Positions 1-63,187 of a stretch of 64,000 nt of DNA are shown here, in pieces. Under the pieces are notes generated by a model that saw only the letters and a program-made list of their open reading frames with translations, was not told the origin of the DNA and did not search any database. Where the stretch lies: NCBI GenBank assembly GCA_946998205.1, contig CAMPYJ010000001.1, forward strand, positions 56,618-120,617. Reading direction: 5' to 3'. The translations under genes were made by a program, and so were the position numbers. Every line of letters starts with the position of its first letter. The stretch's first letter is position 1. This stretch comes from an uncultured Prevotella sp. GTDB taxonomy: Bacteria > Bacteroidota > Bacteroidia > Bacteroidales > Bacteroidaceae.

Positions 1-223
1 TCATGCGCATTCCACTCAGGCTTTGTAGCTGTCGCATCGCTCGAACCGCTTTCAGCAGTTGAGACCGTCAAGAAACACAGGCAAACACTTTCTCATGCGG
101 TTCAATCCTTGCTTGAGGTTTTTTACGCTTCCTGATGCACCTACCGCTGAATGGTTACTTGATGCCGAAGGTTTCTTGAATGAGCCAAACGTGTGTGCGT
201 ACCGAATGACATGACTTGTTTCA

Positions 224-416
224 GGGCGGTTCTATAAATTAGCTTTGACAGATTGTGAGACTATTTTTGAGGTCAATTTGTTTGTGAGTGAAGGAGTATA
301 GCGAGCTATACGACTGAACGAACAAGCAAATTGAACCAAAAAGAGGCCACAAGATGACAAAACGTACAAAGGACGTCATAAAAAAAACTTTACGGTGGTA
401 ATTTATTGAACCGCCC
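224..416 (+). mobile_element. MITE-like element, short form (about 193 bp). Terminal inverted repeats GGGCGGTTCTATAAATTA...TAATTTATTGAACCGCCC, flanked by a TTCA target-site duplication.
   Basis: The 18-bp inverted repeats are read directly from the sequence. The same element recurs at least 12 times in the window. The spurious ORF 239..475 (GGSINYHRKVF peptide) lies inside it. Confidence 0.85.
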
Positions 417-547
417 TTCAGCCTGCGAAATGGCCGTTGGGTAAATAATCGCTTGGGTATGCCAACCATATCCAATAAATTGTCTATATTTGCAGGTGAA
501 AGAAAAACATTCTTTTTAATGAGTACTAATTAGATTTATTCTTTATT

Positions 548-6254: not shown

Positions 6255-7269
6255 GATGTTGTTATGTTGTTTTAATAAGATGTTATACTTTGGCGGGTCG
6301 TCTAATTTATCTCCCAGTCTACCTCCTCTTCTCCAGCATCCTCACGTTTAACCTCATTGAGGTATAACATTTGTTCCCTACTCTTTAATGGAATCTCCGA
6401 AGCTGTCATAATAGACATTTTCTGCACCGAATGGATCACGGTGCATGAAGGTTTTATGTACTTTTTCCTCATAGCTGTAATTTTTAATGATTATTGGATA
6501 ATATTTTAGTAGAAAAAATGTCATGAATACGTTTCAAGAATTTGTGTATGAACACATCTCCCGCCTGTCACATACAGATGTTTACATAGTCTAAGGAGAC
6601 CCCTGCCGAGTTCTGTCATATCCTTGATTTTTCAAGTTTTTCTGTTACGGCTGTAAATTTACGGTGTTTTTGTTTATTCACAAATTATTTGCGTTTCTTT
6701 TTTTTTTTTGAATTTGTTAACTATCTGATAACGTCAAAAAAAACACCCGCCACACCCACCAACGAGAGCATGCGGCACTTTGTATTGAAAGACAGTGGGC
6801 CGTAAGAGACAGCCATGCCACACAGCTTGACAGCGTTACGCGCCAAAGAAAGATTCACAAGAGCGACACCAGGCCGCCACCATACGGTGACGCAGCCATG
6901 CGGAAAGGAAATCACATAACTTTAAAGCAACACTTTAAAATCATTGACTTTACTACATAAACTCAATGACTTTATCAACCAAACACATTGTGTTTGGCAT
7001 GCAATCTCCATGCTTTTGAAAGCCAGCATACTCTCAGACCCTTCACTCCCCCATCCGGTTGGCCATCCACTGCCTGATAAGCGGGAACAGACGGCGACTA
7101 TGAGCGGAGTCGTTGTTGAATGCGCGCAACTGTCGCCTGCCGCCAGTGACGCACGGTGAGCGGCAACGACAATCGGAAGAGAGAGACAGAAGAGAGAGAC
7201 GGAAGCGTCGCGTTCGCAAATCGTCGTTGGCACAAAGAACAGGATTGTTGTCGACGGTAAACCACCTTA

Positions 7270-7528
7270 GGGCGGTTCTATAAATTACCGCCGTAAAGTT
7301 TTTTTGTATGTTTGACAGTTTACGTTTTGTCATCTTGCGGTCTCTTTTTATATAAAACAGGCTGCGCCTCAACAATTCAAACAAGTTTGATTGTATTCGG
7401 CTTGCTCCGTTTTTGGTTCAATTTGTTTGTTCGTTCAGTCGTATAGCCCGCTATACTCCTTCACTCACAAACAAATTGACCACAAAAACAGCCTCGCAAT
7501 CTGACAAAGCTAATTTATAGAACCGCCC
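7270..7528 (-). mobile_element. MITE-like element, long form (about 259 bp), with a CTTA target-site duplication.
   Basis: It has the same inverted repeats plus a roughly 65-70 bp internal module (CGGAGCAAGCCGAATACAATCAAACTTGTTTGAATTGTTGAGGCGCAGCCTGTTTTATATAAAAAGAGTC). CTTA occurs on both flanks. Confidence 0.85.
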
Positions 7529-17692: not shown

Positions 17693-18664
17693 TTGTTTTT
17701 GCCGCTGCGTCCGTAGAGCACGCTCGGTGCAACGCCCGCTGTCTGCCAACGCTTGAGCATCAGTTTGACCAACAACCCTACTGCAAAAAGGCCGCATTGA
17801 TGTCGGGAGAAATTGTACCAAAAAGTTACATTGAGGTGGGCATGTAAGGGAAGATGACAGATACGAATTGAAGTAGTCACATCCACATAGGATGCAAAGG
17901 AAATTTAAATGACAAAATTGAAAATATAATTTATGTTATAAAACCTCCCCATACCGACGAGAAAACTTGTGCGGATGAAATACTTTACTACCTTTGCATT
18001 GTGTTTTTCATGGTATTAGATTATTAAGGTTAATGAAGATTGGTTGTCGTGAGACAATCAATTTTTTTTTTTGCATGCCGTAAAGACACCAGCATGTGTT
18101 CGTAACACCTTCAGATGAGACTCAGTGTTTTTAAAGGCAAGGAAGAAAACTACTTGTCCGTTTATTTCAAAATCATCAAGTTACAAAATAGAAAAAGAAC
18201 GAGAGTTGAGGTGCGTTGTCAAACGCCTCTAACCCCCAACAAGACCATCTTTCATGGCGGCTGTACGTTGTTTGAAGCCCTGTTTGCGCCACATTGCCAC
18301 GTTAGAAACAGCATATTGTCTTCCAACGAGCATGACATTGACGCATAAAAGCATGCATATTGGCCGCCAATAAGCATGCTTTTGGCACAAAAATGGATTC
18401 TCCTTTGCAACGAAAAAACGCCTCACAACAGTAACTCATTATGCCATGGTGAAATATGAAAACATCCTATAATTCGCATATTTGCGTTCTACCTTCACGT
18501 TGGTTGCAAATATGCGAGTTTTGAAGCCGCATGTAAAAACATTTCACAGAAGACACGAGCGGATGGCATGGATGACATAATGCGTCATACCCTTGCAACT
18601 CGAAACGCGATCAATCACGCCGCTATGGTTCAAAGTTCTTTTAGGCGACATGGTGTCTACAATC

Positions 18665-23512: not shown

Positions 23513-23606
23513 TGCGAGTAAACAGCGAAAATGGATTCATGGTTTCAACCGATACCGTGAATCCATTTTTCATGCTCTTTACATTCCTCTTTACCAAGAA
23601 GTTTAA

Positions 23607-23799
23607 GGGCGGTTCTATAAATTAGCTTTGTCAGATTGCGAGGCTGTTTTTGTGGTCAATTTGTTTGTGAGTGAAGGAGTATAGCGGGCTATACGACTGA
23701 ACGAACAAACAAATTGAACCAAAAAGAGACCGCAAGATGACAAAACGTAAACTGTCCAACATACAAAAAACTTTACGGCGGTAATTTATAGAACCGCCC
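23607..23799 (+). mobile_element. MITE-like element, short form, with a TTAA target-site duplication.
   Basis: It has the inverted repeats and TTAA on both flanks. It lies 37 bp downstream of the helicase gene end. Confidence 0.85.
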
Positions 23800-23836
23800 T
23801 TAAGACATTAAACTGAGCTTACAACCCTCTCTACCC

Positions 23837-27582: not shown

Positions 27583-27587
27583 TAAAA

Positions 27588-27789
27588 GGCTGGTTCTATA
27601 AATTACCACCGCACATAGTCATTAAATGTTTATGAAATACGTTTTGTTATCTTTTGGCTTCTTTTTGGTTCAAAATGTAAGTTCGTTCAGTCGTGTAGCT
27701 CGCTACACTCCTTCACTCTCTTGCATTTTGACCTCAAAAATAAGCTCAAAATCTAACAAAGCTAATTTATAGAACCAGCCAAACCACGA
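27588..27789 (-). mobile_element. MITE-like element, a diverged short copy.
   Basis: The repeats are degenerate (GGCTGGTTCTATAAATTA...TAATTTATAGAACCAGCC). It starts 6 bp after the EamA stop codon. Confidence 0.7.
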
Positions 27790-28179: not shown

Positions 28180-28393
28180 AAACGGGACTCACAGCCCCAA
28201 TGGATAGCATCCCACAAAGGCCGCCAACCAATAACGTTGACTTTGAACGCCAATCCCATACACTTTGGATCCCAAAGTCATAGAGATTGACCTCCAAAGT
28301 CAATGCTTTTAATTTCACAAGGTAATGAAGAAGAGAATATGAGGATATGCTGTACTTCAACAGAAGTAAATAACAGACTTTGTATCAATTGGT

Positions 28394-40843: not shown

Positions 40844-41051
40844 AAGACTTTTCAACACTCTGACAAACAACGTATTAAACGACATTTCGCATCATCCCGT
40901 CATTACAGTAAAGTAACAAACCTGGTTCAATCGCAGTATTCTTCCCCATGATAACTATTCAGCTGAAGAAAAAAAACGTCTTGCCTCCGTCTTCTATTTC
41001 CCACAAGACATCCCCTCGAAAGCCTTTGAAAAAGCAGTATGTTTTCATGTG

Positions 41052-41232
41052 TTTTCAATTGCATTGACATTGAGTACCAAAGTCATGTGAATTGTACGCC
41101 AATGTCAGCGACTTTGGCATTCAAGGTCATTGACATTGATTTTCAAGTTGGATGCGCTTGCGTCCCTGCCGGACAGCTTACTCAAACTATGTGTCAGCAA
41201 ATTTTGCAAGATGGTCTACACCTAAAAAAGGT
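41052..41232. repeat. Repeat B, copy 1. An unclassified interspersed repeat of about 180 bp with conserved hairpins.
   Basis: It is about 75-80% identical over roughly 180 bp to 61637..61818. The shared 19-mer CAAACTATGTGTCAGCAAA is present in both. ORF 41039..41251 is probably not coding. Confidence 0.6.
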
Positions 41233-41307
41233 TCTTCCGTTAAATGCGTAGACAATTGTCATGTAGAGCGCACAGCTTTAACGTGAAGAACCATAAAATA
41301 GGTATTA

Positions 41308-41559
41308 GGGTGGTTCTATAAATTGCCACCGTAAAGTTTTTTTATGTCAGTCTTTCTTCTTATCTTGTTGACTCTTTTTATATAAAACAGGCTGCGCCTC
41401 AACAAATCAAACAAGTTTGATTGTATTCGGCTTGCTCCGTTTTTGGTTCAATTTGTTTGTTCGTTCAGTCGTATAGCCTGCTATACTCCTTCACTCACAA
41501 ACAAATTGACCAAAAAAAATAGTCGCACAATCTCTCTAAGCTAATCTATAAAGCCGCCC
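41308..41559 (-). mobile_element. MITE-like element, long form, with an ATTA target-site duplication.
   Basis: The repeats are GGGTGGTTCTATAAATTG...TAATCTATAAAGCCGCCC. ATTA occurs on both flanks. Confidence 0.8.
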
Positions 41560-44812: not shown

Positions 44813-44825
44813 AAAGATTAATTAA

Positions 44826-45083
44826 GGGCGGTTCTATAAATTACCGCCGTAAAGTTTTTTGTATGTTGGACAGTTTACGTTTTGTCATCTTGCGGTCTCT
44901 TTTTATATAAAACAGGCTGCGCCTCAACAATTCAAACAAGTTTGATTGTATTCGGCTTGCTCCGTTTTTGGTTCAATTTGTTTGTTCGTTCAGTCGTATA
45001 GCCCGCTATACTCCTTCACTCACAAACAAATTGACCACAAAAACAGTCTCACAATCTGTCAAAGCTAATTTATAAAACCGCCC
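44826..45083 (-). mobile_element. MITE-like element, long form.
   Basis: Both repeats are intact. No clear target-site duplication is visible. Spurious ORF 44692..44910 overlaps it. Confidence 0.85.
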
Positions 45084-47690: not shown

Positions 47691-47764
47691 ACATATTTGG
47701 TTAAAAAATTGATAATATAAGTACGTTGTTGTTTTGCTTATTTAAAATAGAATTAATCTATATA

Positions 47765-48021
47765 GGGCGGTTCTATCAATCAGCTTTGACAGTTTGTGGG
47801 ACTATTTTTGAGGTCAATTTGTTTGTGAGTGAAGGAGTATAGCGAGCTATACGGCTGAACGAACAAGCAAATTGAACCAAAAACGGAGCAAGCCGAATAC
47901 AATCAAACTTGTTTGAATTGTTGAGGCGCAGCCTGTTTTATATAAAAAGAGTCCACAAGATGACAAAACGTAAAAACACTGACATAAAAGAACTTTACGG
48001 TGGTAATTTATAGAACCGCCC
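47765..48021 (+). mobile_element. MITE-like element, long form.
   Basis: It has the inverted repeats (one repeat carries point changes: GGGCGGTTCTATCAATCA). Spurious ORF 47847..48029 overlaps it. Confidence 0.85.
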
Positions 48022-48187
48022 TTATACAATCTTCAAATGAGCCTGTCTTCTTATCACCACCCTGCCCGATGTAACATTTTTACGGGCAAAGGTAGTGAAT
48101 AAAGAATACCGAACAATGGCGGTTAACGTTGGATGCTTACGATACGCAACATTCAACACCTCACAACATTTTAAATCCTTGTGAATC

Positions 48188-50302: not shown

Positions 50303-50777
50303 TACACATTTCAGTTTGTTAATAATATTTGTAATATTGCGCAAAATTAATACTATTTTGTAATAAAACAGAAAACAATAGTATTTATTTGACAAAAAAA
50401 AACACAAATATTGATTCAAGATAGAAGTACAAGGCCTGCGGGTATCTTGATATACTTAAAACCATGAGAGAGACTGCGGGGTCGCCTTTCGGTTGGGATG
50501 CTTAACCCCAAAGAGCATAACCGCCCATACAAATACAGAAAAGGGAGACACCGCGGGCTCAGCAAAGATAATTTGCCCTGTACTGTGAAACATCATCAAG
50601 CAACCGCAAGTAAAAGTTCGCAAATTTTAGTTCCGCCGATAAAGCAACTTCTTTATTTAAAATTAGATACGCCCTTACGACCATCTTACTTTTCAATCTC
50701 CATGCTTTTGCCCTCCAATCTGCATGCTATTGCACGGCAAAAGCATGCGTTTATGCGGCTAAAAGCATTGCTTTCAG

Positions 50778-50887
50778 TGCGGTTCTATAAATTAGCTTTG
50801 ACAGATTGCGAGATTGTTTTTTAGGCCGATTTGTTTGTAAGTGAAGGAGCATAGCGAGCTATACGACTGGACGAACAAGAAAATTAA
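50778..50887 (+). mobile_element. Truncated MITE: the first about 110 bp only, abutting a full inverted copy.
   Basis: It has the left repeat and internal sequence as far as ...ACAAGAAAATTAA, then breaks exactly where the next copy begins. Confidence 0.7.
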
Positions 50888-51083
50888 GTGCGGTTCTATA
50901 AATTACCATCGTAAAGTTCTTGTTCGGCAGTCTTTTTACGTTTTGTCATCTTGTTGACTCTTTTTGGTTCAATTTGCTTGTTCGTTCAGTCGTATAGCTC
51001 GCTATACTTCTTCACTCACTAACAAATTGACCTCAAAAAAAAATAGTCTCACAATCTGTCAAAGCTAATTTATAGAACCGCCC
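50888..51083 (-). mobile_element. MITE-like element, short form, arranged head-to-head with the truncated copy.
   Basis: The repeats are GTGCGGTTCTATAAATTA...TAATTTATAGAACCGCCC. Confidence 0.8.
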
Positions 51084-55189: not shown

Positions 55190-55269
55190 ACCACGGCCTG
55201 TCGAACTTCCTCAGAGGAAACCAATCGCAGACACTAAAGCGCGAACGGAACGCTGATGAAAACGAATTA

Positions 55270-55527
55270 GGGAGGTTCTATAAATTAGCTTTGACAGATT
55301 GTGAGACTATTTTTGAGGTCAATCTGCTTGTGAGTGAAGGAGTATAGCGAGCTATACGACTGAACAAACAAGCAAATTGAACCAAAAACGGAGCAAGCCG
55401 AATACAATCAAACTTGTTTGAATTGTTGAGGCGCAGCCTGTTTTATATAAAAAGAGTCCACAAGATGACAAAACGTAAAAAGACTGACACATAAAAAACT
55501 TTACGGTGGTAATTTATAGAACCGCCC
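55270..55527 (+). mobile_element. MITE-like element, long form, with an ATTAG target-site duplication.
   Basis: It has the inverted repeats, and ATTAG occurs on both flanks. It lies between pyrI and glyA. Confidence 0.85.
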
Positions 55528-55571
55528 ATTAGCCTAAACGAAACATCATTACTCAAACCAAGATAAAAGAC

Positions 55572-57441: not shown

Positions 57442-58476
57442 TCAAGACTTCGGCAGGGACAGGACGATGGTTTTAAACCAATCTTTCATCACCCCACCCG
57501 CCTGGTTCTGCGAGTCAGACACCAAGACCAACACCCGAGAGCCGTCGGACAGTTTGGGGCCAAGGCACATACCCTCGAAGTTGGCTATATCATGATGAAA
57601 CAAAGAAAGATGGGTGGTCCATTTCGTCACCAACCGTTTTTTCAAGTAAGGCATTGCCGCATTCAGAGAATCTGCCCCATCGACTGGAACGCCTTTTTGA
57701 GGGTGTACCAAAAACAATTTGTTGTTGACAAAGGCACCCAGTTTAGAAGGTGGCGTATAAAATTCGCGTTCCAAGACCAATACACTGCCGTCATCGAGTG
57801 CCGTGACCTCCGGTACTCCCATGCCATAGAGATAAGCCTTCCTGTTTGCTTCAGGTGCGTCCATCAGATAGGCATACTGATGTAAAGGCCGAAAATCGGC
57901 GCTGAACGATTGCAAGCGCAACCTGTTACGAACCCCATTTGTCGCTGTGGCCTGTTCGCCATCGCCCAGAAGCGTGCCTTCGTTACACGTCCAAAACGTC
58001 TGGGTGAGTTCGTTAAAGCTCAACGACTCCAACCCATAATTGCCCCTATCCCGCTGATAGACAGCTGGGACGTACAGTCTCCGGCTCATGAGATGCCCAT
58101 CCATCGCATATTCTTTGATGGTGTTGTCGGCCTCACGGGTGACATACAGAGTTTTAGATGACGGCACATAAGTGACGGCCTCCATGTCCCCGTTTTTGTC
58201 CGTGTCGCCCCTGAAGCCAAGATTCTCCACATGCAGAACGTCACCGGTGACAGGGTCGAGAGCTATTTTGAAAAGGAAGAAACCATCCTGCGGCGACTTG
58301 TCACTAACCACCGCATACACACTGTCACCGATATAGGTGATGCCACTGTAATTCCCCGCCGGTATATCCTTCGGGAAACTACGTTGCTCGTTCACTCGCA
58401 CTACCGTCAGCGAGTCTTGAGACTTTACCGAACATACAGCCAACAAGAAGGCTGCCATTAAATAAATCTTTCTCAT
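57442..58476 (-). CDS. Secreted hypothetical protein, possibly in the phytase-like (esterase-like activity of phytase) beta-propeller family.
   Basis: It has a signal peptide. The family assignment is a weak recollection and needs an HMM search. Confidence 0.3.
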   Translation of the reverse strand: MRKIYLMAAFLLAVCSVKSQDSLTVVRVNEQRSFPKDIPAGNYSGITYIGDSVYAVVSDKSPQDGFFLFKIALDPVTGDVLHVENLGFRGDTDKNGDMEAVTYVPSSKTLYVTREADNTIKEYAMDGHLMSRRLYVPAVYQRDRGNYGLESLSFNELTQTFWTCNEGTLLGDGEQATATNGVRNRLRLQSFSADFRPLHQYAYLMDAPEANRKAYLYGMGVPEVTALDDGSVLVLEREFYTPPSKLGAFVNNKLFLVHPQKGVPVDGADSLNAAMPYLKKRLVTKWTTHLSLFHHDIANFEGMCLGPKLSDGSRVLVLVSDSQNQAGGVMKDWFKTIVLSLPKS

Positions 58477-58500: not shown

Positions 58501-58626
58501 AGCCAGAGGCAAACTTGTTTACCGTGATAAGGCACAGCCCATCATCAGCAAAGATGGTGCAAGCCGAAGCCAAAGGAAAACTTGTTTACTATGGTAAGGC
58601 ACAGCCCATCATCTGCAAAGGTAATA
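58501..58626. repeat. Tandem duplication, two copies of about 60 bp, in the region upstream of gene 57442..58476.
   Basis: The units are AGCCAGAGGCAAACTTGTTTACCGTGATAAGGCACAGCCCATCATCAGCAAAG and AGCCGAAGCCAAAGGAAAACTTGTTTACTATGGTAAGGCACAGCCCATCATCTGCAAAG, about 85% identical. Confidence 0.7.
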
Positions 58627-58712: not shown

Positions 58713-59726
58713 CTAATTCATAGTCTGTTGTCTACCTCTTCGAACAACAGACCTGAGCGTGAAATAGAGTTCTTCTTGGATTCTGAACATCCGCCATGAA
58801 AAGCGTAGCGGCATATACCCGAATTTATATTTTAACCTTTTATATAACCTGTGCACCTCGATACCACTCCATATCCGATGAAGTTCACGCATGCCCATCA
58901 CAGACTCCTCGGCAGAAAGCCGTTTTCTGTAAGAATAATGAAAATAATATAAATCTATCAATACCAGCCAGCGCACATTTTCATAAGTTGTTAACACATC
59001 ATCGCTTACGTTAAGTTGTATCAACTGCTTCTTCATACTTTCGTTGGCACGAAGATAATCAAACCTGCTTCCACCAATAACATGTGTTACAGAGTGGGGA
59101 TTGTAGTGGTAGTAGTACTCTCCATGACAACAACTCACTTGCTTAGAAAACAAATAATGCAGTCGTGTACTGTTATCATCACTGTAGGTCTTACACGTGT
59201 CATCGTACGGGAATTGTTTGAAAAGAGCGGTTTTCGCAGCATAAACACCGTGAATTTTCCACGTCAAGCTGTCTTTGAACGCCTCGTATCCAGACCTTTC
59301 GTCAAAAAAATCCATGTCATATTCCTGTGCGGTTGAATTGTCACCTCCAAGGGTGAGGAGCTTGAAAAGCACGCAGTCTACTTGTGGGTGTTTTTCAAAA
59401 ACCTGCAAAGCCTCTTCCAAAGCATCGGGCGCAAACGTATCATCGCAATCTAAAAACGTGGTGTAATGGGCGTTGATAAATTTAATTCCTTCGTTGCGGG
59501 CATGTGCTGCTCCATAGTTTTGACTTAAATGAAGAACCTCAATTCGCCGGTCAGCAGCAGCATACAATTGTAATATTTTCCAAGAATTGTCCGTAGAGCC
59601 GTCGTCTATACAAATCACTTGAATGTCTTTGAGGGTTTGTCGCAGCAACGAATCCAAGCATCTTTTCAGATACTCGCTGCCATTATAAACCGCCACCAAT
59701 ATCGCAAATGATGCTATTTTTTCCAT
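58713..59726 (-). CDS. Family 2 glycosyltransferase.
   Basis: It has the GT2 signature (FAILVAVYNGSEYLKRCLDSL...DDGSTD) and DCDD. The start is moved to an internal Met, giving a 13-bp overlap with the upstream Wzx gene. Confidence 0.7.
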   Translation of the reverse strand: MEKIASFAILVAVYNGSEYLKRCLDSLLRQTLKDIQVICIDDGSTDNSWKILQLYAAADRRIEVLHLSQNYGAAHARNEGIKFINAHYTTFLDCDDTFAPDALEEALQVFEKHPQVDCVLFKLLTLGGDNSTAQEYDMDFFDERSGYEAFKDSLTWKIHGVYAAKTALFKQFPYDDTCKTYSDDNSTRLHYLFSKQVSCCHGEYYYHYNPHSVTHVIGGSRFDYLRANESMKKQLIQLNVSDDVLTTYENVRWLVLIDLYYFHYSYRKRLSAEESVMGMRELHRIWSGIEVHRLYKRLKYKFGYMPLRFSWRMFRIQEELYFTLRSVVRRGRQQTMN

Positions 59727-61198
59727 ACTCGTAATTTCAAACGTGTCCACAAATCGGTCTTTTTTCTCAATATGCGCAACGACACCCACAGACTCAACAG
59801 GACGACCGCCACGCCCCCACCCCAATACAACCAGCCATGGGTTGACAACACCAAGGCGTAAGTCAACAAGCCCAGCATGAGTTGGATGCCTAAATATCGC
59901 CACACCGAATTGGACATATTATATTGATAGGTGGTGTGCATAAAATAAAATAGCATAAAAAAATCCAATGCAGCTACCAAGGTGACAGCCATTCCAGCAC
60001 CTAATAACTCATAATAGTGGAATCCTGCGATAACAGCAAGCACCAACACGACATCGTAGATAGCCTCTACGAGAAGGTACAGCCTCGAATTGCCTTTTGC
60101 CAACGGAATGTAAGCAATGGGTAGTTTGACAGCTCGCCAATACATCGCCAGCACCAAGGTCTGCACCATGGCCTGAAGCGACACGAACTCTTTACTATAC
60201 AGCAGCGGCAACAACACCGGAACACCTACCATGAACATCACCAACATAGGCGAAATGAGCAACAACGACACTTCTATCTGACTGTTGACCGTTTCGTTCA
60301 ACAGCGCGCCTGTGTGCTTGATGGACGACAAGCGTGGAAAGAAATCGGTTTCCATGGCAGAAAACACCAAACCCGCATACGTCATCGTCATCATATAAGC
60401 GGCATTAAACAAGCCAACGGTCTCTACCGATCCCAACACGTTAAGGTAGCGGCGTATCAGGAAATCGGCACCGCTTCCCAAAATACCTGCCAGCACAAAA
60501 GCCACTCCAATCTTGAGCATAGGACTCCCCTGCAACAATAAAGTTTTGCTCCAGTTAAAACGTATAGTGTATTGTCTATGAGAGTAATAAATGGTGAGCA
60601 GCATTTGTGTCAAGGCGACAATGATGAGTGAAGGAACAATAGCAGCCTTACGCCAGATGTAGAACAAAGGAATGGAGGTAATCAATGCGCCTACCATGTT
60701 GAGAAAAGAGATTTTCGCCAACGACTTGAGTTGTCGTAAGGCTTTCAAAATGGCCAACTCTCCTCCCGTCACCGCCATTAGGAATACCACTACCGACAGC
60801 AAAACGAAATGCAAAGAGTGGTCGCCCCAGCCAAAGACCCACCGACTGAGCATGGGACTTATCATCATGCACACAGCCATACCCAACAATGCCGTCAACA
60901 CGCTCCACAGACGCACACAGTCAATACAACGTCTCATGTAGGCCTCGTCGTGCTGTTCGAAAACAGCAGACAGTTCCCTGACGGCACTCATGCTTAATCC
61001 AAAATTAGTGGAGTCGCTAACCAGTTTGGTTGTGGAATTGAAGAGCGACATCAGCCCCATGCCCTCGGCACCGAGAAGAAGAGCCACCAACTTATTGCGA
61101 ACAATGCCTACCAAGATGCCAAGCCCTTGCACACCGCCAAAAAGACCAGTGTATTTTAAGATATGGGTATAGGTTTTATTGCGATTCTCGTTTGTCAT
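59714..61198 (-). CDS. wzx: Wzx-family oligosaccharide flippase (polysaccharide biosynthesis protein).
   Basis: It has about 12-14 transmembrane helices and the characteristic N-terminus (...YTGLFGGVQGLGILVGIVRNKLVALLLG...). Confidence 0.7.
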   Translation of the reverse strand: MTNENRNKTYTHILKYTGLFGGVQGLGILVGIVRNKLVALLLGAEGMGLMSLFNSTTKLVSDSTNFGLSMSAVRELSAVFEQHDEAYMRRCIDCVRLWSVLTALLGMAVCMMISPMLSRWVFGWGDHSLHFVLLSVVVFLMAVTGGELAILKALRQLKSLAKISFLNMVGALITSIPLFYIWRKAAIVPSLIIVALTQMLLTIYYSHRQYTIRFNWSKTLLLQGSPMLKIGVAFVLAGILGSGADFLIRRYLNVLGSVETVGLFNAAYMMTMTYAGLVFSAMETDFFPRLSSIKHTGALLNETVNSQIEVSLLLISPMLVMFMVGVPVLLPLLYSKEFVSLQAMVQTLVLAMYWRAVKLPIAYIPLAKGNSRLYLLVEAIYDVVLVLAVIAGFHYYELLGAGMAVTLVAALDFFMLFYFMHTTYQYNMSNSVWRYLGIQLMLGLLTYALVLSTHGWLYWGGGVAVVLLSLWVSLRILRKKTDLWTRLKLRVWKK

Positions 61199-61299: not shown

Positions 61300-61493
61300 G
61301 CAGGCGACTCTATAAATTACCACCGTAAACTTTTTTATGTCAGTCGTTTTTACGTTTTGTCATCTCGTGGACTCTTTTGCGTTCATTTTTTTTGTTCGGT
61401 CAGTCGTATAGCTCGCTATACTCCTTCACCCACTAACAAATTGACCTCAAAAATGATCTCGCAATCTGTCAAAGCCGATTTATAGAAACACCC
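61300..61493 (-). mobile_element. MITE-like element, a degenerate short copy.
   Basis: The repeats are diverged (GGCGACTCTATAAATTA...GATTTATAGAAACACCC). Spurious ORF 61255..61485 overlaps it. Confidence 0.65.
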
Positions 61494-61636: not shown

Positions 61637-61818
61637 GTTTTCAATTGCATAGACTTTGAACGTCAAAGGCGTGTGAATTGAACGCCAATGCCAATGACTT
61701 TGGAAACCAATGTCATTGGCATTGGCTCGCAAGGTGGATGCGCCCGCTCGCCTGCCGAGCGGTTTGCTCAAACTATGTGTCAGCAAACATGGCAAGATGT
61801 CGCACACCTGAAAAAACG
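61637..61818. repeat. Repeat B, copy 2.
   Basis: It matches 41052..41232. It contains a perfect 14-bp inverted repeat (CCAATGCCAATGAC / GTCATTGGCATTGG) and a second hairpin (CCGCTCG-cctgc-CGAGCGG). Confidence 0.6.
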
Positions 61819-62066
61819 GATAGATAAAATGTCGTGACACATCTTTGATTTCCTGAAAGTACCGGCGGTTCCTCCTGGCAGTGACGCGAGCTGACGGGGC
61901 CTGCCGCTGAAAAGGCACCTCCCCGGGCGGTTGTTTTGTTAATATAGCTTAACAAGATGTCATTCTAAGAGATGATGTTGAGACCGATTGACTTTTTTAT
62001 CGTAATTTTGCACACGCTGTCACGAGTTGACGGCATTAATTCAAACCTAAAAATAATAAGACAAAA

Positions 62067-62606
62067 ATGGCAACAAAGATTAGATTGCAGCGCGGCGGAC
62101 GCAAAGGCTATGCTTTCTACAGCATCGTAATCGCTGACGCAAGAGCACCACGAGATGGTAGATTTATTGAAAAGATTGGAACGTATAACCCCAATACGAA
62201 TCCAGCAGCTGTAGATTTGAATTTCGACAGAGCTCTTTACTGGCTCGAGGTTGGCGCACAACCCACAGACACAGCCCGTAACATTCTCAAGCGCGAGGGC
62301 GTTTACCTCATGAAACACCTGCGCGGCGGAGTAAAGAAGGGCGCATTTGACGAAGCAGCCATGCAAACCAAATTCGATGCTTGGAAACAAGATAAGGTAA
62401 AGGGATTGCAGGCATGCGCTGAGAACGAAGCTAAAGCAAAGAAAGACGCTCAGGTAAAAGTACTTGAGGAAGAAAAGAAAATCAATGCGGAAATTGCAAA
62501 GAAAGTGGCAGAAAAGAAAGCTGCTGCCGCCAAGGCCGCTGAAGTAGCAGCTAATGCTGAAAACGCAGAAGCCGCCTCCGCAGAAGAAGCTCCCGCGGAA
62601 GCTTAA
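62067..62606 (+). CDS. rpsP: 30S ribosomal protein S16 with a Lys/Ala-rich C-terminal extension.
   Basis: The N-terminal 85 aa are canonical S16 ([18 protein letters not shown]...). The C-terminal roughly 90 aa are KA-rich and low-complexity. Confidence 0.9.
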
Positions 62607-62805
62607 GGGTGATTCTATAAATTAGCTTTGACAGGTTGTGAGACTATTTTCTGAGGTCAATTCGTTTGTGTGTGTGAAGGAGTATAGAGAGCTGTACGAC
62701 TAAACGAACAAGCAAATTGAACCAAAAAAAAGAGTCCACAAGATGACAAAACGTAAAAAAAAACTGACCCCAAAAACTTTACAGGGGTAATTTACAGAAC
62801 CGCAC
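62607..62805 (+). mobile_element. MITE-like element, short form, with a TTAA target-site duplication, inserted immediately after the rpsP stop codon.
   Basis: It begins at the base after the TAA stop. TTAA occurs on both flanks. The repeats are slightly degenerate (GGGTGATTC...GAACCGCAC). Confidence 0.8.
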
Positions 62806-62839
62806 TTAATATAAGCTTCTTAAAAAGGAATATTGAAAA

Positions 62840-62876: not shown

Positions 62877-62919
62877 TGATAATAAGCATAAAGGTATACA
62901 ACCACTTCATTAAGATATA

Positions 62920-63113
62920 GGGTGGTTCTATCAATTAGCTTTGACAGATTGTGAGACTATTTTTTGAGGTCAATTTGTTTGTGAGTGAAGGAGTATAGCG
63001 AGCTATACGACTGAACGAACAAGCAAATTGAACTAAAAAGAGGCCACAACATGACAAAACGTAAAAACACTGACATCATAAAAACATTACGGTGGTAATT
63101 TATAGAACCGCCC
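62920..63113 (+). mobile_element. MITE-like element, short form.
   Basis: The inverted repeats are intact (GGGTGGTTCTATCAATTA...TAATTTATAGAACCGCCC). No clean target-site duplication is visible. Confidence 0.85.
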
Positions 63114-63187
63114 TTTAAGAAGTTTCCACCTTATCTTTTGTCGCACTTGGAACTAAAAGTCATCTGTTGCCATCTATCGGTATTTGA

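What the first reader, a model, noticed from the sequence alone, without database searches (positions are those of the whole stretch)
41052..41232. Second interspersed repeat of about 180 bp with conserved hairpins and compensatory changes
The regions 41052..41232 and 61637..61818 are about 75-80% identical. They share blocks such as GTTTTCAATTGCAT, GTGAATTG-ACGCCAATG and CAAACTATGTGTCAGCAAA. Copy 2 carries a perfect 14-bp inverted repeat (CCAATGCCAATGAC ... GTCATTGGCATTGG). Copy 1 carries the homologous hairpin (CCAATGTCAGCGAC ... GTCATTGACATTG) with a compensatory pair (C:G to T:A) and a two-base internal mismatch. A second GC hairpin (CCGCTCG-cctgc-CGAGCGG in copy 2, GTCC-ctgcc-GGAC in copy 1) is conserved in position but not in sequence. 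Each copy lies within about 150 bp of a MITE but on opposite sides, so it is an independent element. Structure conserved despite sequence drift hints at a structured ncRNA or a DNA-level recognition site, not junk.
Basis: seen in the sequence. Interest (0 to 1): 0.55.

Follow-up and report, generated by a model that had tools for sequence, protein, structure and literature searches.

The report
Intergenic 22-bp palindromic repeat arrays
The two ~180-bp look-alike stretches are real, but their "hairpins" come from five back-to-back 22-bp near-palindromic units; such arrays are scattered between genes in this Prevotella-like genome and some relatives, so this looks like a dispersed repeat element rather than a structured RNA gene.

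Summary
41051-41229 and 61637-61815 align over 179 nt with no gap at 77.7% identity, and the named hairpins are there. The interpretation needs changing. The first ~110 nt of each copy is a strictly phased array of five degenerate 22-bp units (CAAAnnCATTGnnTTTG + 5 nt). The hairpins arise because neighbouring units are near reverse complements. A motif-free scan finds self-similar regions only at lag 22 (five regions; none at lags 12-33 otherwise). A unit matrix finds six arrays in the window, all intergenic, and related arrays in other Prevotellaceae contigs; one of those gains or loses a whole unit between strains. Only the ~70-nt tail is private to copies 1 and 2. No Rfam family matches, RNAalifold gives no net covariation, no promoter or terminator frames the element, and it is not coding. 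Differences between the two copies avoid the motif positions (p=0.001), but polymorphisms within each locus do not. Both copies are fixed across strains while nearby MITEs come and go. Best reading: old copies of a dispersed minisatellite-type intergenic repeat, analogous to BrickBuilt, BOX or REP/BIME but unrelated in sequence. Mechanism and any host role remain inferred.

The parts
41051..41229 (+). Copy 1 of the ~180-bp composite repeat (array plus tail)
   Evidence: 179-nt ungapped match to copy 2 at 77.7%. Present at 97% identity next to the 949-aa T9SS-type gene in 10 other strain contigs.
41056..41165 (+). Copy 1 array: five 22-bp units starting at 41056, 41078, 41100, 41122 and 41144
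   Evidence: Every unit starts with CAA in exact 22-nt register. Lag-22 self-identity 0.52. Found by the motif-free lag scan and by the matrix scan, score 61 against a shuffle maximum of 4.7.
41166..41229 (+). Copy 1 tail: rest of the GC hairpin (whole hairpin 41162-41174), conserved 21-mer 41181-41201, A-run end
   Evidence: Shared only with copy 2. blastn and nhmmer find no other match in the window or in any fetched locus.
61637..61815 (+). Copy 2 of the composite repeat
   Evidence: Kept at 95-100% identity about 250 bp upstream of rpsP in 10 strain contigs whose upstream genes differ.
61642..61751 (+). Copy 2 array: five 22-bp units starting at 61642, 61664, 61686, 61708 and 61730. Units 3 and 4 form the perfect 15-bp hairpin.
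   Evidence: (lag 22 = 0.49).
61752..61815 (+). Copy 2 tail: rest of the GC hairpin (whole hairpin 61744-61762), conserved 21-mer 61767-61787, A-run end
28229..28316 (+). Related array of four 22-bp units. It shares TTGAACGCCAAT..CA...ACTTTGG with copies 1 and 2.
   Evidence: blastn and nhmmer partial hits, family D11, lag-22 self-identity 0.60, lag scan.
6931..7018 (-). Related array of four units
   Evidence: Tandem Repeats Finder period 22, matrix score 54, lag scan.
50689..50776 (-). Related array of three to four units that abuts a MITE end
   Evidence: Not used to build the matrix, score 32. Register. Lag scan.
18297..18384 (-). Related array of three clear units plus a weaker one. Two more CAA-phased rows follow down to 18253.
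   Evidence: Not used to build the matrix, score 31. Register. Below the threshold of the lag scan.

Best explanation
Copies 1 and 2 are two old, now immobile copies of a dispersed intergenic repeat. Its core is a minisatellite: four to six head-to-tail 22-bp units, each a quasi-palindrome (CAAA nn CATTG nn TTTG plus a 5-nt spacer), followed in this sub-family by a ~70-nt tail. Shown: (1) the 22-bp array structure; (2) a family of such arrays, all intergenic, in this genome and in some other Prevotellaceae; (3) gain or loss of whole units between strains in a related array; (4) hairpins that form because adjacent units are near reverse complements. Inferred: arrays or composites were seeded at new intergenic sites by a sequence-specific copying process (a transposase- or recombinase-like protein, or a hairpin-recognising enzyme) that needs the motif positions. 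This would explain why the two copies differ mainly outside the motif. Once in place the copies drift neutrally as passengers, with at most side effects on neighbouring genes. The DNA- or RNA-level hairpins are a consequence of unit symmetry, not a selected RNA fold.
For: The motif-free scan finds regions of at least 56% self-identity only at lag 22: five regions, and none at any other lag from 12 to 33. Units sit in exact register. The matrix scan finds six arrays in 64 kb, and only two arrays (both of this same family, L028 and L121) in 1.09 Mb of otherwise unrelated metagenomic and viral DNA. All six lie between genes although about 81% of the window is coding; my arithmetic gives 0.19^6, about 5e-5. 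Related arrays occur in other Prevotellaceae contigs (L021, L023, L025, L028, L121). A variant unit type (TTAA..CATG..TTAA) in L017/L018 has 5 versus 6 units in two strains with identical S16. Copy 1 and copy 2 differ at 3/40 motif positions against 18/48 other positions, with the motif defined from other arrays only (p=0.001). Within-locus polymorphisms show no such bias (7/190 vs 8/228, p=1). Variable positions within a unit do not covary. Homology edges are sharp. Both copies are fixed across strains while MITEs nearby are polymorphic. A gene caller names copy 1 a hypothetical protein whose only relative among 5.8 billion proteins is its own orthologue, as happens with BrickBuilt elements (PMC4596501).
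Against: No terminal inverted repeats or target-site duplications were found at the edges of copies 1 and 2. No empty site was seen for either copy. No transposase or other candidate protein is linked to any array. Arrays at other loci share no leader or tail with copies 1 and 2, so 'one element family' rests on the unit alone. Adjacent units are more complementary than random unit pairs (6.15 vs 4.97 of 11, p=0.002), and three pairs changed on both sides, so some selection or templated repair for hairpins cannot be excluded. The polymorphism sample is small (15 sites).
Confidence: 0.45

Rival explanations
1. Host-functional DNA platform. The arrays are phased operator- or iteron-like sites bound cooperatively on one face of the helix by a dimeric DNA-binding protein (a regulator, nucleoid-associated protein or partition-type protein). 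They are kept by selection where they sit.
For: A palindromic motif sits at fixed positions with non-covarying variable positions. The 22-bp phase is strict, about two helical turns, with no indel across 179 nt at 22% divergence. Between species the outer half-sites change symmetrically, CAAA/TTTG to TTAA/TTAA. Copy 2 is invariably upstream of rpsP.
Against: Three of six arrays lie between convergent genes and none is at a fixed distance from a start codon. Recent polymorphisms hit motif positions as often as others. Arrays are absent from about 20 kb each of several related species, including around rpsP. No candidate protein is known, and there is no match in plasmids.
Confidence: 0.2
2. RNA-level element. 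The ~180-nt unit is a small RNA, or a UTR module made of stacked hairpins (a REP-like stabiliser or terminator, or a protein-sponging RNA).
For: Copy 2 folds far better than shuffles on both strands (z=-5.2 and -5.8). Three pairs changed on both sides against 0.5 in shuffles (3/500). The GC hairpin keeps its loop CCTGCC while its stem differs. The edges are sharp, as for a gene. Adjacent units are more complementary than expected.
Against: No Rfam match. RNAalifold covariation term +0.76. 14 of 63 pairs include an unpaired cell with no compensating change. Copy 1 + strand z=-1.6. No TAnnTTTG box or terminator at either end. G-U versus C-A changes give no strand preference: in the unit-3/4 hairpin, 3 G-U and 2 C-A. 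The gene contexts of the two copies do not agree in either orientation.
Confidence: 0.2
3. True REP/BIME system: palindromic units mobilised by a REP-associated Y1 transposase (RAYT).
For: The units are extragenic, clustered and palindromic, and neighbours act as inverted pairs.
Against: Units carry no GTAG or CGTC tag, which is the family-defining feature in PMC3733652. No Y1 transposase domain appears in any gene table of the fetched loci. Units are in strict head-to-tail 22-bp phase, not at variable spacing.
Confidence: 0.07
4. A one-off segmental duplication of ordinary intergenic DNA whose hairpins are incidental, or a decayed or real small coding gene. Copy 1 has a 70-aa Cys-rich ORF, and copy 2 has TGA where copy 1 has TGT, just upstream of the hairpin, which resembles a SECIS arrangement.
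For: Only two full-length copies are known.
Against: The array half belongs to a multi-locus, multi-species family. Substitutions show no third-position excess (11/17/15). Peptide identity is about 48%, as expected for neutral change. The only protein relative is the orthologue of copy 1 itself.
Confidence: 0.05

Closest known systems
BrickBuilt minisatellite MITE of Porphyromonas gingivalis (Klein et al. 2015, PMC4596501)
   Same: Same bacterial order. Both are tandem direct repeats of about 22-23 nt with no spacers and with conserved and variable positions within the unit. Both have many non-identical copies, always intergenic. Non-repeat leader or tail segments are attached to the array. 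Unit number is variable. Copies are sometimes mis-called as hypothetical genes.
   Different: The unit sequence is unrelated: AGAYCATARTATCCTCTCRTRTG has 0 matches at up to 3 mismatches. The units here are dyad-symmetric. Arrays are short (3-6 units, against up to 23). No TIRs matching an IS were found. Only copies 1 and 2 share a tail.
REP/BIME elements of Proteobacteria
   Same: Short imperfect palindromes, extragenic, clustered, able to form hairpins in DNA or RNA, often between convergent genes.
   Different: No GTAG/CGTC tag. Strict head-to-tail 22-bp phasing. No RAYT seen. The stems do not covary within units.
BOX elements of Streptococcus pneumoniae (from my own knowledge, not checked here)
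   Same: A modular intergenic repeat in which a middle module is tandemly reiterated and flanked by unique modules, with strong predicted secondary structure.
   Different: Different phylum, a 45-nt unit, and no sequence similarity.
Iterons, and the contiguous 22-bp TnsB-binding sites of the Tn7 right end (from my own knowledge)
   Same: Four to five directly repeated sites of about 22 bp in helical phase that serve as a multi-site protein platform.
   Different: No adjacent rep or tns genes, no TGT/ACA termini, many chromosomal intergenic loci, and no plasmid or viral matches.

Membership tests
Rfam RNA family / structured sRNA | Match to a curated covariance model | tested here: not met
   Whole window at gathering threshold gives only FopS and one tRNA elsewhere. 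Permissive scans of both regions give only sub-threshold microRNA-type noise.
Rfam RNA family / structured sRNA | Base pairs kept through compensatory change | tested here: inconclusive
   RNAalifold covariation term +0.76. Three pairs changed on both sides against 0.5 in shuffles (3/500), but 14 of 63 pairs include an unpaired cell with no compensating change. There are effectively two independent sequences.
Rfam RNA family / structured sRNA | Own promoter (Bacteroidetes TAnnTTTG) and intrinsic terminator framing the unit | tested here: not met
   No TAnnTTTG within 200 nt of either array. No terminator-like site at either end. The boxes at -13..-6 match only 5/6 and 4/6 specified positions (read).
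REP/BIME | Short imperfect palindromes, extragenic, multi-copy, clustered | tested here: met
   A 17-bp quasi-palindromic core per unit. Six arrays in 64 kb, all intergenic.
REP/BIME | Conserved GTAG or CGTC tetranucleotide at one end of the palindrome (PMC3733652) | tested here: not met
   Units begin with CAA and end with TTG plus a variable 5-nt spacer. No such tag in 36 units.
REP/BIME | RAYT (Y1 transposase) gene flanked by the repeats | tested here: inconclusive
   No Y1 transposase Pfam in any fetched gene table, but the complete genome was not available.
BrickBuilt-type minisatellite MITE | Tandem ~23-nt direct repeats without spacers, intergenic, many loci | tested here: met
   22-nt units in exact register. 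All arrays intergenic.
BrickBuilt-type minisatellite MITE | BrickBuilt unit consensus | tested here: not met
   0 matches at up to 3 mismatches.
BrickBuilt-type minisatellite MITE | Leader and tail with terminal inverted repeats matching an IS; presence/absence between strains | tested here: inconclusive
   Copies 1 and 2 share a tail, but I saw no TIR or TSD on reading their edges (no formal inverted-repeat scan was run). Both copies are present in all 10+10 strain contigs. Other arrays share no flanks with them.
BrickBuilt-type minisatellite MITE | Variable number of units | tested here: met
   L017 has 5 units and L018 has 6 at the same locus. There is no variation in copy 1 or copy 2 themselves.
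Plasmid iterons / transposon-end multi-sites | Adjacent rep or transposase gene, or location on a plasmid or phage | tested here: not met
   No such neighbours in the gene tables. No plasmid match. Viral pattern hits are random.
CRISPR array | Repeats separated by unique spacers of similar length | tested here: not met
   Units abut directly; the only spacing is 5 nt inside the 22-nt period.
Protein-coding gene / selenoprotein with SECIS | Third-position excess of substitutions; protein homologues | tested here: not met
   Differences fall 11/17/15 over the codon positions. The only hit among 5.8 billion proteins is the orthologous ORF P0134.

The most novel reading that the evidence does not exclude
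The phased 22-bp dyad-symmetric arrays are a previously undescribed, genus-level class of chromosomal multi-site platform in Prevotellaceae. An as yet unknown sequence-specific protein would recognise them. Its specificity would co-evolve with the outer half-sites (CAAA/TTTG in this species, TTAA/TTAA in another). It would either spread the arrays or use them for chromosome organisation or gene control.
Probability: 0.2. Interest if true: 0.6.

Novelty: new variant of a known kind. Interest (0 to 1): 0.4.

Why it matters
Prevotellaceae are abundant in the human gut and mouth, and their non-coding DNA is poorly charted. A repeat family that fills intergenic space, forms long hairpins, breaks assemblies and is sometimes called as a gene affects annotation and sRNA prediction. 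If the arrays turn out to bind a protein or influence neighbouring genes such as rpsP, they would be a new regulatory or organisational element. If they are passengers, they are useful strain-typing (VNTR) markers and a caution against reading palindromic repeats as structured RNAs.

Tried and rejected
1. Coding or selenoprotein reading (TGT in copy 1 against TGA in copy 2, followed by a hairpin). Rejected: no codon-position bias and no protein family.

2. Rfam families. None matched.

3. Genome-contig scan with the 18-mer CAAACTATGTGTCAGCAA. It returned only a chance hit in a Chloroflexi MAG.

4. Metagenome-contig scan with ACGCCAATNNCANNNACTTTGG. Only L028 and L121 were real arrays.

5. Four viral-contig scans gave only chance matches.

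6. Plasmid BLAST found nothing.

7. Homology beyond the 179-nt core is not significant.

8. Copy 2 as a conserved rpsP leader. Rejected: in related species rpsP directly follows an epimerase gene. Only the proximal ~140 nt (the TAAnTTTG promoter and 5' UTR hairpin) is conserved there, and the array is not.

9. Literature. No description was found of 22-bp arrays, REP-like repeats or MITEs in Prevotella or Segatella. The held supplementary alignments of Fremin & Bhatt 2021 contain no such motif.

10. Hairpins within single units. Rejected: no covariation.

Full report
OBSERVATION. Regions 41051-41229 and 61637-61815 align over 179 nt with no gap at 77.7% identity (E=9e-37). Copy 2 has a perfect 14-bp inverted repeat (61685-61698 / 61712-61725) that extends to 15 bp. 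Copy 1 has the matching hairpin (41099-41112 / 41126-41138) with one C:G to T:A double change and two broken pairs. Both copies have a GC hairpin around a shared CCTGCC loop, and both carry the identical 21-mer CTCAAACTATGTGTCAGCAAA. Similarity ends sharply, since 100-nt flanks on either side align no better than shuffles (p=0.16 and 0.44). MITE copies lie next to both copies.

ORGANISM AND CONTEXT. The S16 protein downstream of copy 2 has its nearest named relatives in Prevotella and Hoylesella. The 951-aa gene beside copy 1 is a T9SS-sorted protein that is 51% identical to one from P. melaninogenica. Copy 1 lies between convergent genes, a glycosyltransferase on the + strand and the 951-aa gene on the - strand. 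Copy 2 lies between a flippase gene on the - strand and rpsP on the + strand.

WHAT THE HAIRPIN HALF REALLY IS. nhmmer with a profile of the two copies hit only their first ~90 nt in other places: window 28243-28306 and 6963-7025, and intergenic sites in other Prevotellaceae contigs (L021, L023, L024, L025). Reading those sequences showed a repeating unit. Self-comparison gave lag 22 or its multiple 44 as the strongest lag in all seven regions tested, at 0.43-0.60 for lag 22 against a 95th percentile of shuffle maxima of 0.39-0.44. Written in rows of 22, nearly every row of every array starts with CAA or TAA. Consensus from the 28 units outside copies 1 and 2 gives conserved positions CAAA..CAT.....TTG followed by a variable 5-nt spacer. 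The matrix built from the first 26 units, which includes copies 1 and 2, has the palindromic consensus CAAAGTCATTGACTTTG.

SPECIFICITY OF THE ARRAYS. A scan that uses no motif looked for at least 56% self-identity over 66 comparisons. It finds five regions in the window at lag 22 and none at any other lag from 12 to 33. A unit matrix scored over three phased units finds six arrays in the window. Two of them were not used to build the matrix, and shuffles reach at most 4.7 against scores of 31-61. The same scan over 1.09 Mb of otherwise unrelated metagenomic and viral DNA finds only two arrays, both of this family (L028 and L121). All six window arrays are intergenic although about 81% of the window is coding. 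So the first ~110 nt of each copy is a five-unit array, and the hairpins are pairings between neighbouring units. Only the ~70-nt tail is private to copies 1 and 2.

RNA STRUCTURE OR DNA MOTIF. Within units, the variable positions 4-6 and 12-14 do not covary. The palindrome comes from conserved letters only. Neighbouring units are somewhat more complementary to each other than random unit pairs are (6.15 vs 4.97 of 11 positions, p=0.002). This is why long hairpins such as the one in copy 2 appear. It could reflect selection, or hairpin-templated repair of quasi-palindromes.

I then aligned copy 1, copy 2 and four distinct strain alleles of copy 2. RNAalifold gives a covariation term of +0.76, meaning no net support. 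Pair counting gives three pairs changed on both sides against 0.5 in shuffles (3/500), while 14 of 63 pairs include an unpaired cell with no compensating change. Copy 2 folds much better than shuffles on both strands (z about -5 to -6). Copy 1 does so only weakly (z=-1.6 and -2.5). There is no Rfam match. No Bacteroidetes -7 box or intrinsic terminator frames the element. A structured RNA is therefore not supported, though not excluded.

NOT CODING. The 43 differences fall 11/17/15 over the three codon positions. Copy 2 has a stop codon in the only shared open frame. The TGT/TGA coincidence ahead of the hairpin is noted and set aside. The 70-aa ORF of copy 1 has a single relative among 5.8 billion proteins, and that is its own orthologue.

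EVOLUTIONARY BEHAVIOUR. Copy 2 is 95-100% identical in ten strain contigs, always about 250 bp upstream of rpsP, while the genes further upstream differ. The common block starts exactly at a MITE end. Copy 1 is present in ten other contigs beside the 949-aa gene, again with a different left context in one of them. Those contigs also carry an extra MITE flanked by a TAAA duplication that the window lacks. So MITEs are mobile here and the 180-bp element is not.

Differences between copy 1 and copy 2 avoid the motif positions, with the motif defined from other arrays only (3/40 vs 18/48; p=0.001). Polymorphisms among orthologous alleles of five arrays do not avoid them (7/190 vs 8/228; p=1). I read this contrast as follows: the motif mattered when the copies were made, not for keeping them in place. 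The sample is small.

Arrays are lineage-specific in location. None was found in about 20 kb each of a P. melaninogenica chromosome, two other relatives and an abundant Prevotella species. A different species carries arrays with the same 22-bp period and central CATG/CATTG but TTAA/TTAA outer half-sites. One of those has 5 units in one strain and 6 in another. That is minisatellite behaviour.

INTERPRETATION. The best-supported picture is a dispersed, minisatellite-type intergenic repeat family. Copies 1 and 2 are an old sub-family carrying a common tail. The nearest described analogue in the same order is BrickBuilt of Porphyromonas gingivalis: 23-nt tandem units, leader and tail, always intergenic, sometimes mis-annotated as genes (PMC4596501). 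Its unit sequence is absent here. REP/BIME elements are similar in habit, but the defining GTAG/CGTC tag is missing and no RAYT was seen. How arrays reach new sites and whether a protein reads the motif are inferences. A host-functional protein platform (about 0.2) and an RNA-level role (about 0.2) remain open.

LIMITS. I could not access the rest of this genome. Only two full-length copies are known, and no expression data were available. Literature searches found no prior description of these arrays in Prevotella or Segatella. The library lacks most subscription journals, however.

Noticed in passing
window 216-451, 7269-7528, 23599-23834, 27587-27780, 41307-41558, 44825-45083, 47757-48024, 50769-51079, 55262-55529, 61301-61493, 62599-62807, 62912-63115: A very abundant MITE of about 230-260 bp with ends GGGCGGTTCTATAAATTA...GAACCGCCC, at least 12 copies in 64 kb. 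It is actively polymorphic. Ten other strain contigs carry a copy inserted at CAG|TAAA|GTAAC upstream of copy 1 with a TAAA duplication, a site that is empty in the window at about 40901-40912. Changing gene contexts upstream of both 180-bp copies begin at MITE ends, which suggests MITE-mediated rearrangement.
   Followed up: partly
window 18001-18071 (+): Rfam hit to the Bacteroidetes FopS family of paralogous sRNAs (72.7 bits, gathering score 56), followed by a T-run. One of the 22-bp arrays lies about 250 nt downstream.
   Followed up: no
window 61925-62066; L017 9835-10000; L021 9761-10000: The rpsP promoter and leader are conserved across species: ...TTTTTATCGTAAnTTTGCA (a TAnnTTTG -7 box), then a GTCACGAGTTGAC hairpin and TTAATTCAAACC. 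In related species rpsP follows an epimerase gene directly. In the window's species that epimerase lies downstream of rpsP, so the locus has been rearranged.
   Followed up: partly
L002 7931-8095 (about 0-160 bp past the window's right end): A separate, very regular minisatellite of about 23-24 bp (AGTTGACAAGTTGACAAGGATTT, 88% self-identity at lag 23), just after the TonB-receptor-like ORF and upstream of the epimerase gene.
   Followed up: no
L017 8368-8527; L018 8343-8528 and 17882-18020: 22-bp arrays of a variant unit (GTTAACCCATGTAGATAACACC) in a neighbouring species. They are highly homogeneous (83-89% at lag 22) and differ by one whole unit between two strains. The outer half-sites have changed symmetrically relative to the window's CAAA/TTTG.
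   Followed up: partly
L024 10935-11017; L192-L194 right ends: Metagenome contigs end inside or right beside arrays or repeats. L024 stops within an array. Thirteen contigs carrying the 1210-aa homologue all end about 50 nt after the gene. This suggests that these repeats break assemblies.
   Followed up: no
window 58501-58620: Two 53-nt direct repeats, 89% identical and 67 nt apart (family D12), in the intergenic stretch between the genes at 57442-58476 and 58713-59903.
   Followed up: no
window 41092-41100 and 61678-61686: In the one frame open in copy 1, a Cys codon (TGT) aligns with TGA in copy 2, a few bases before the long hairpin. This resembles a Sec/Cys pair with a SECIS. I judged it a coincidence because substitutions show no coding pattern.
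   Followed up: yes
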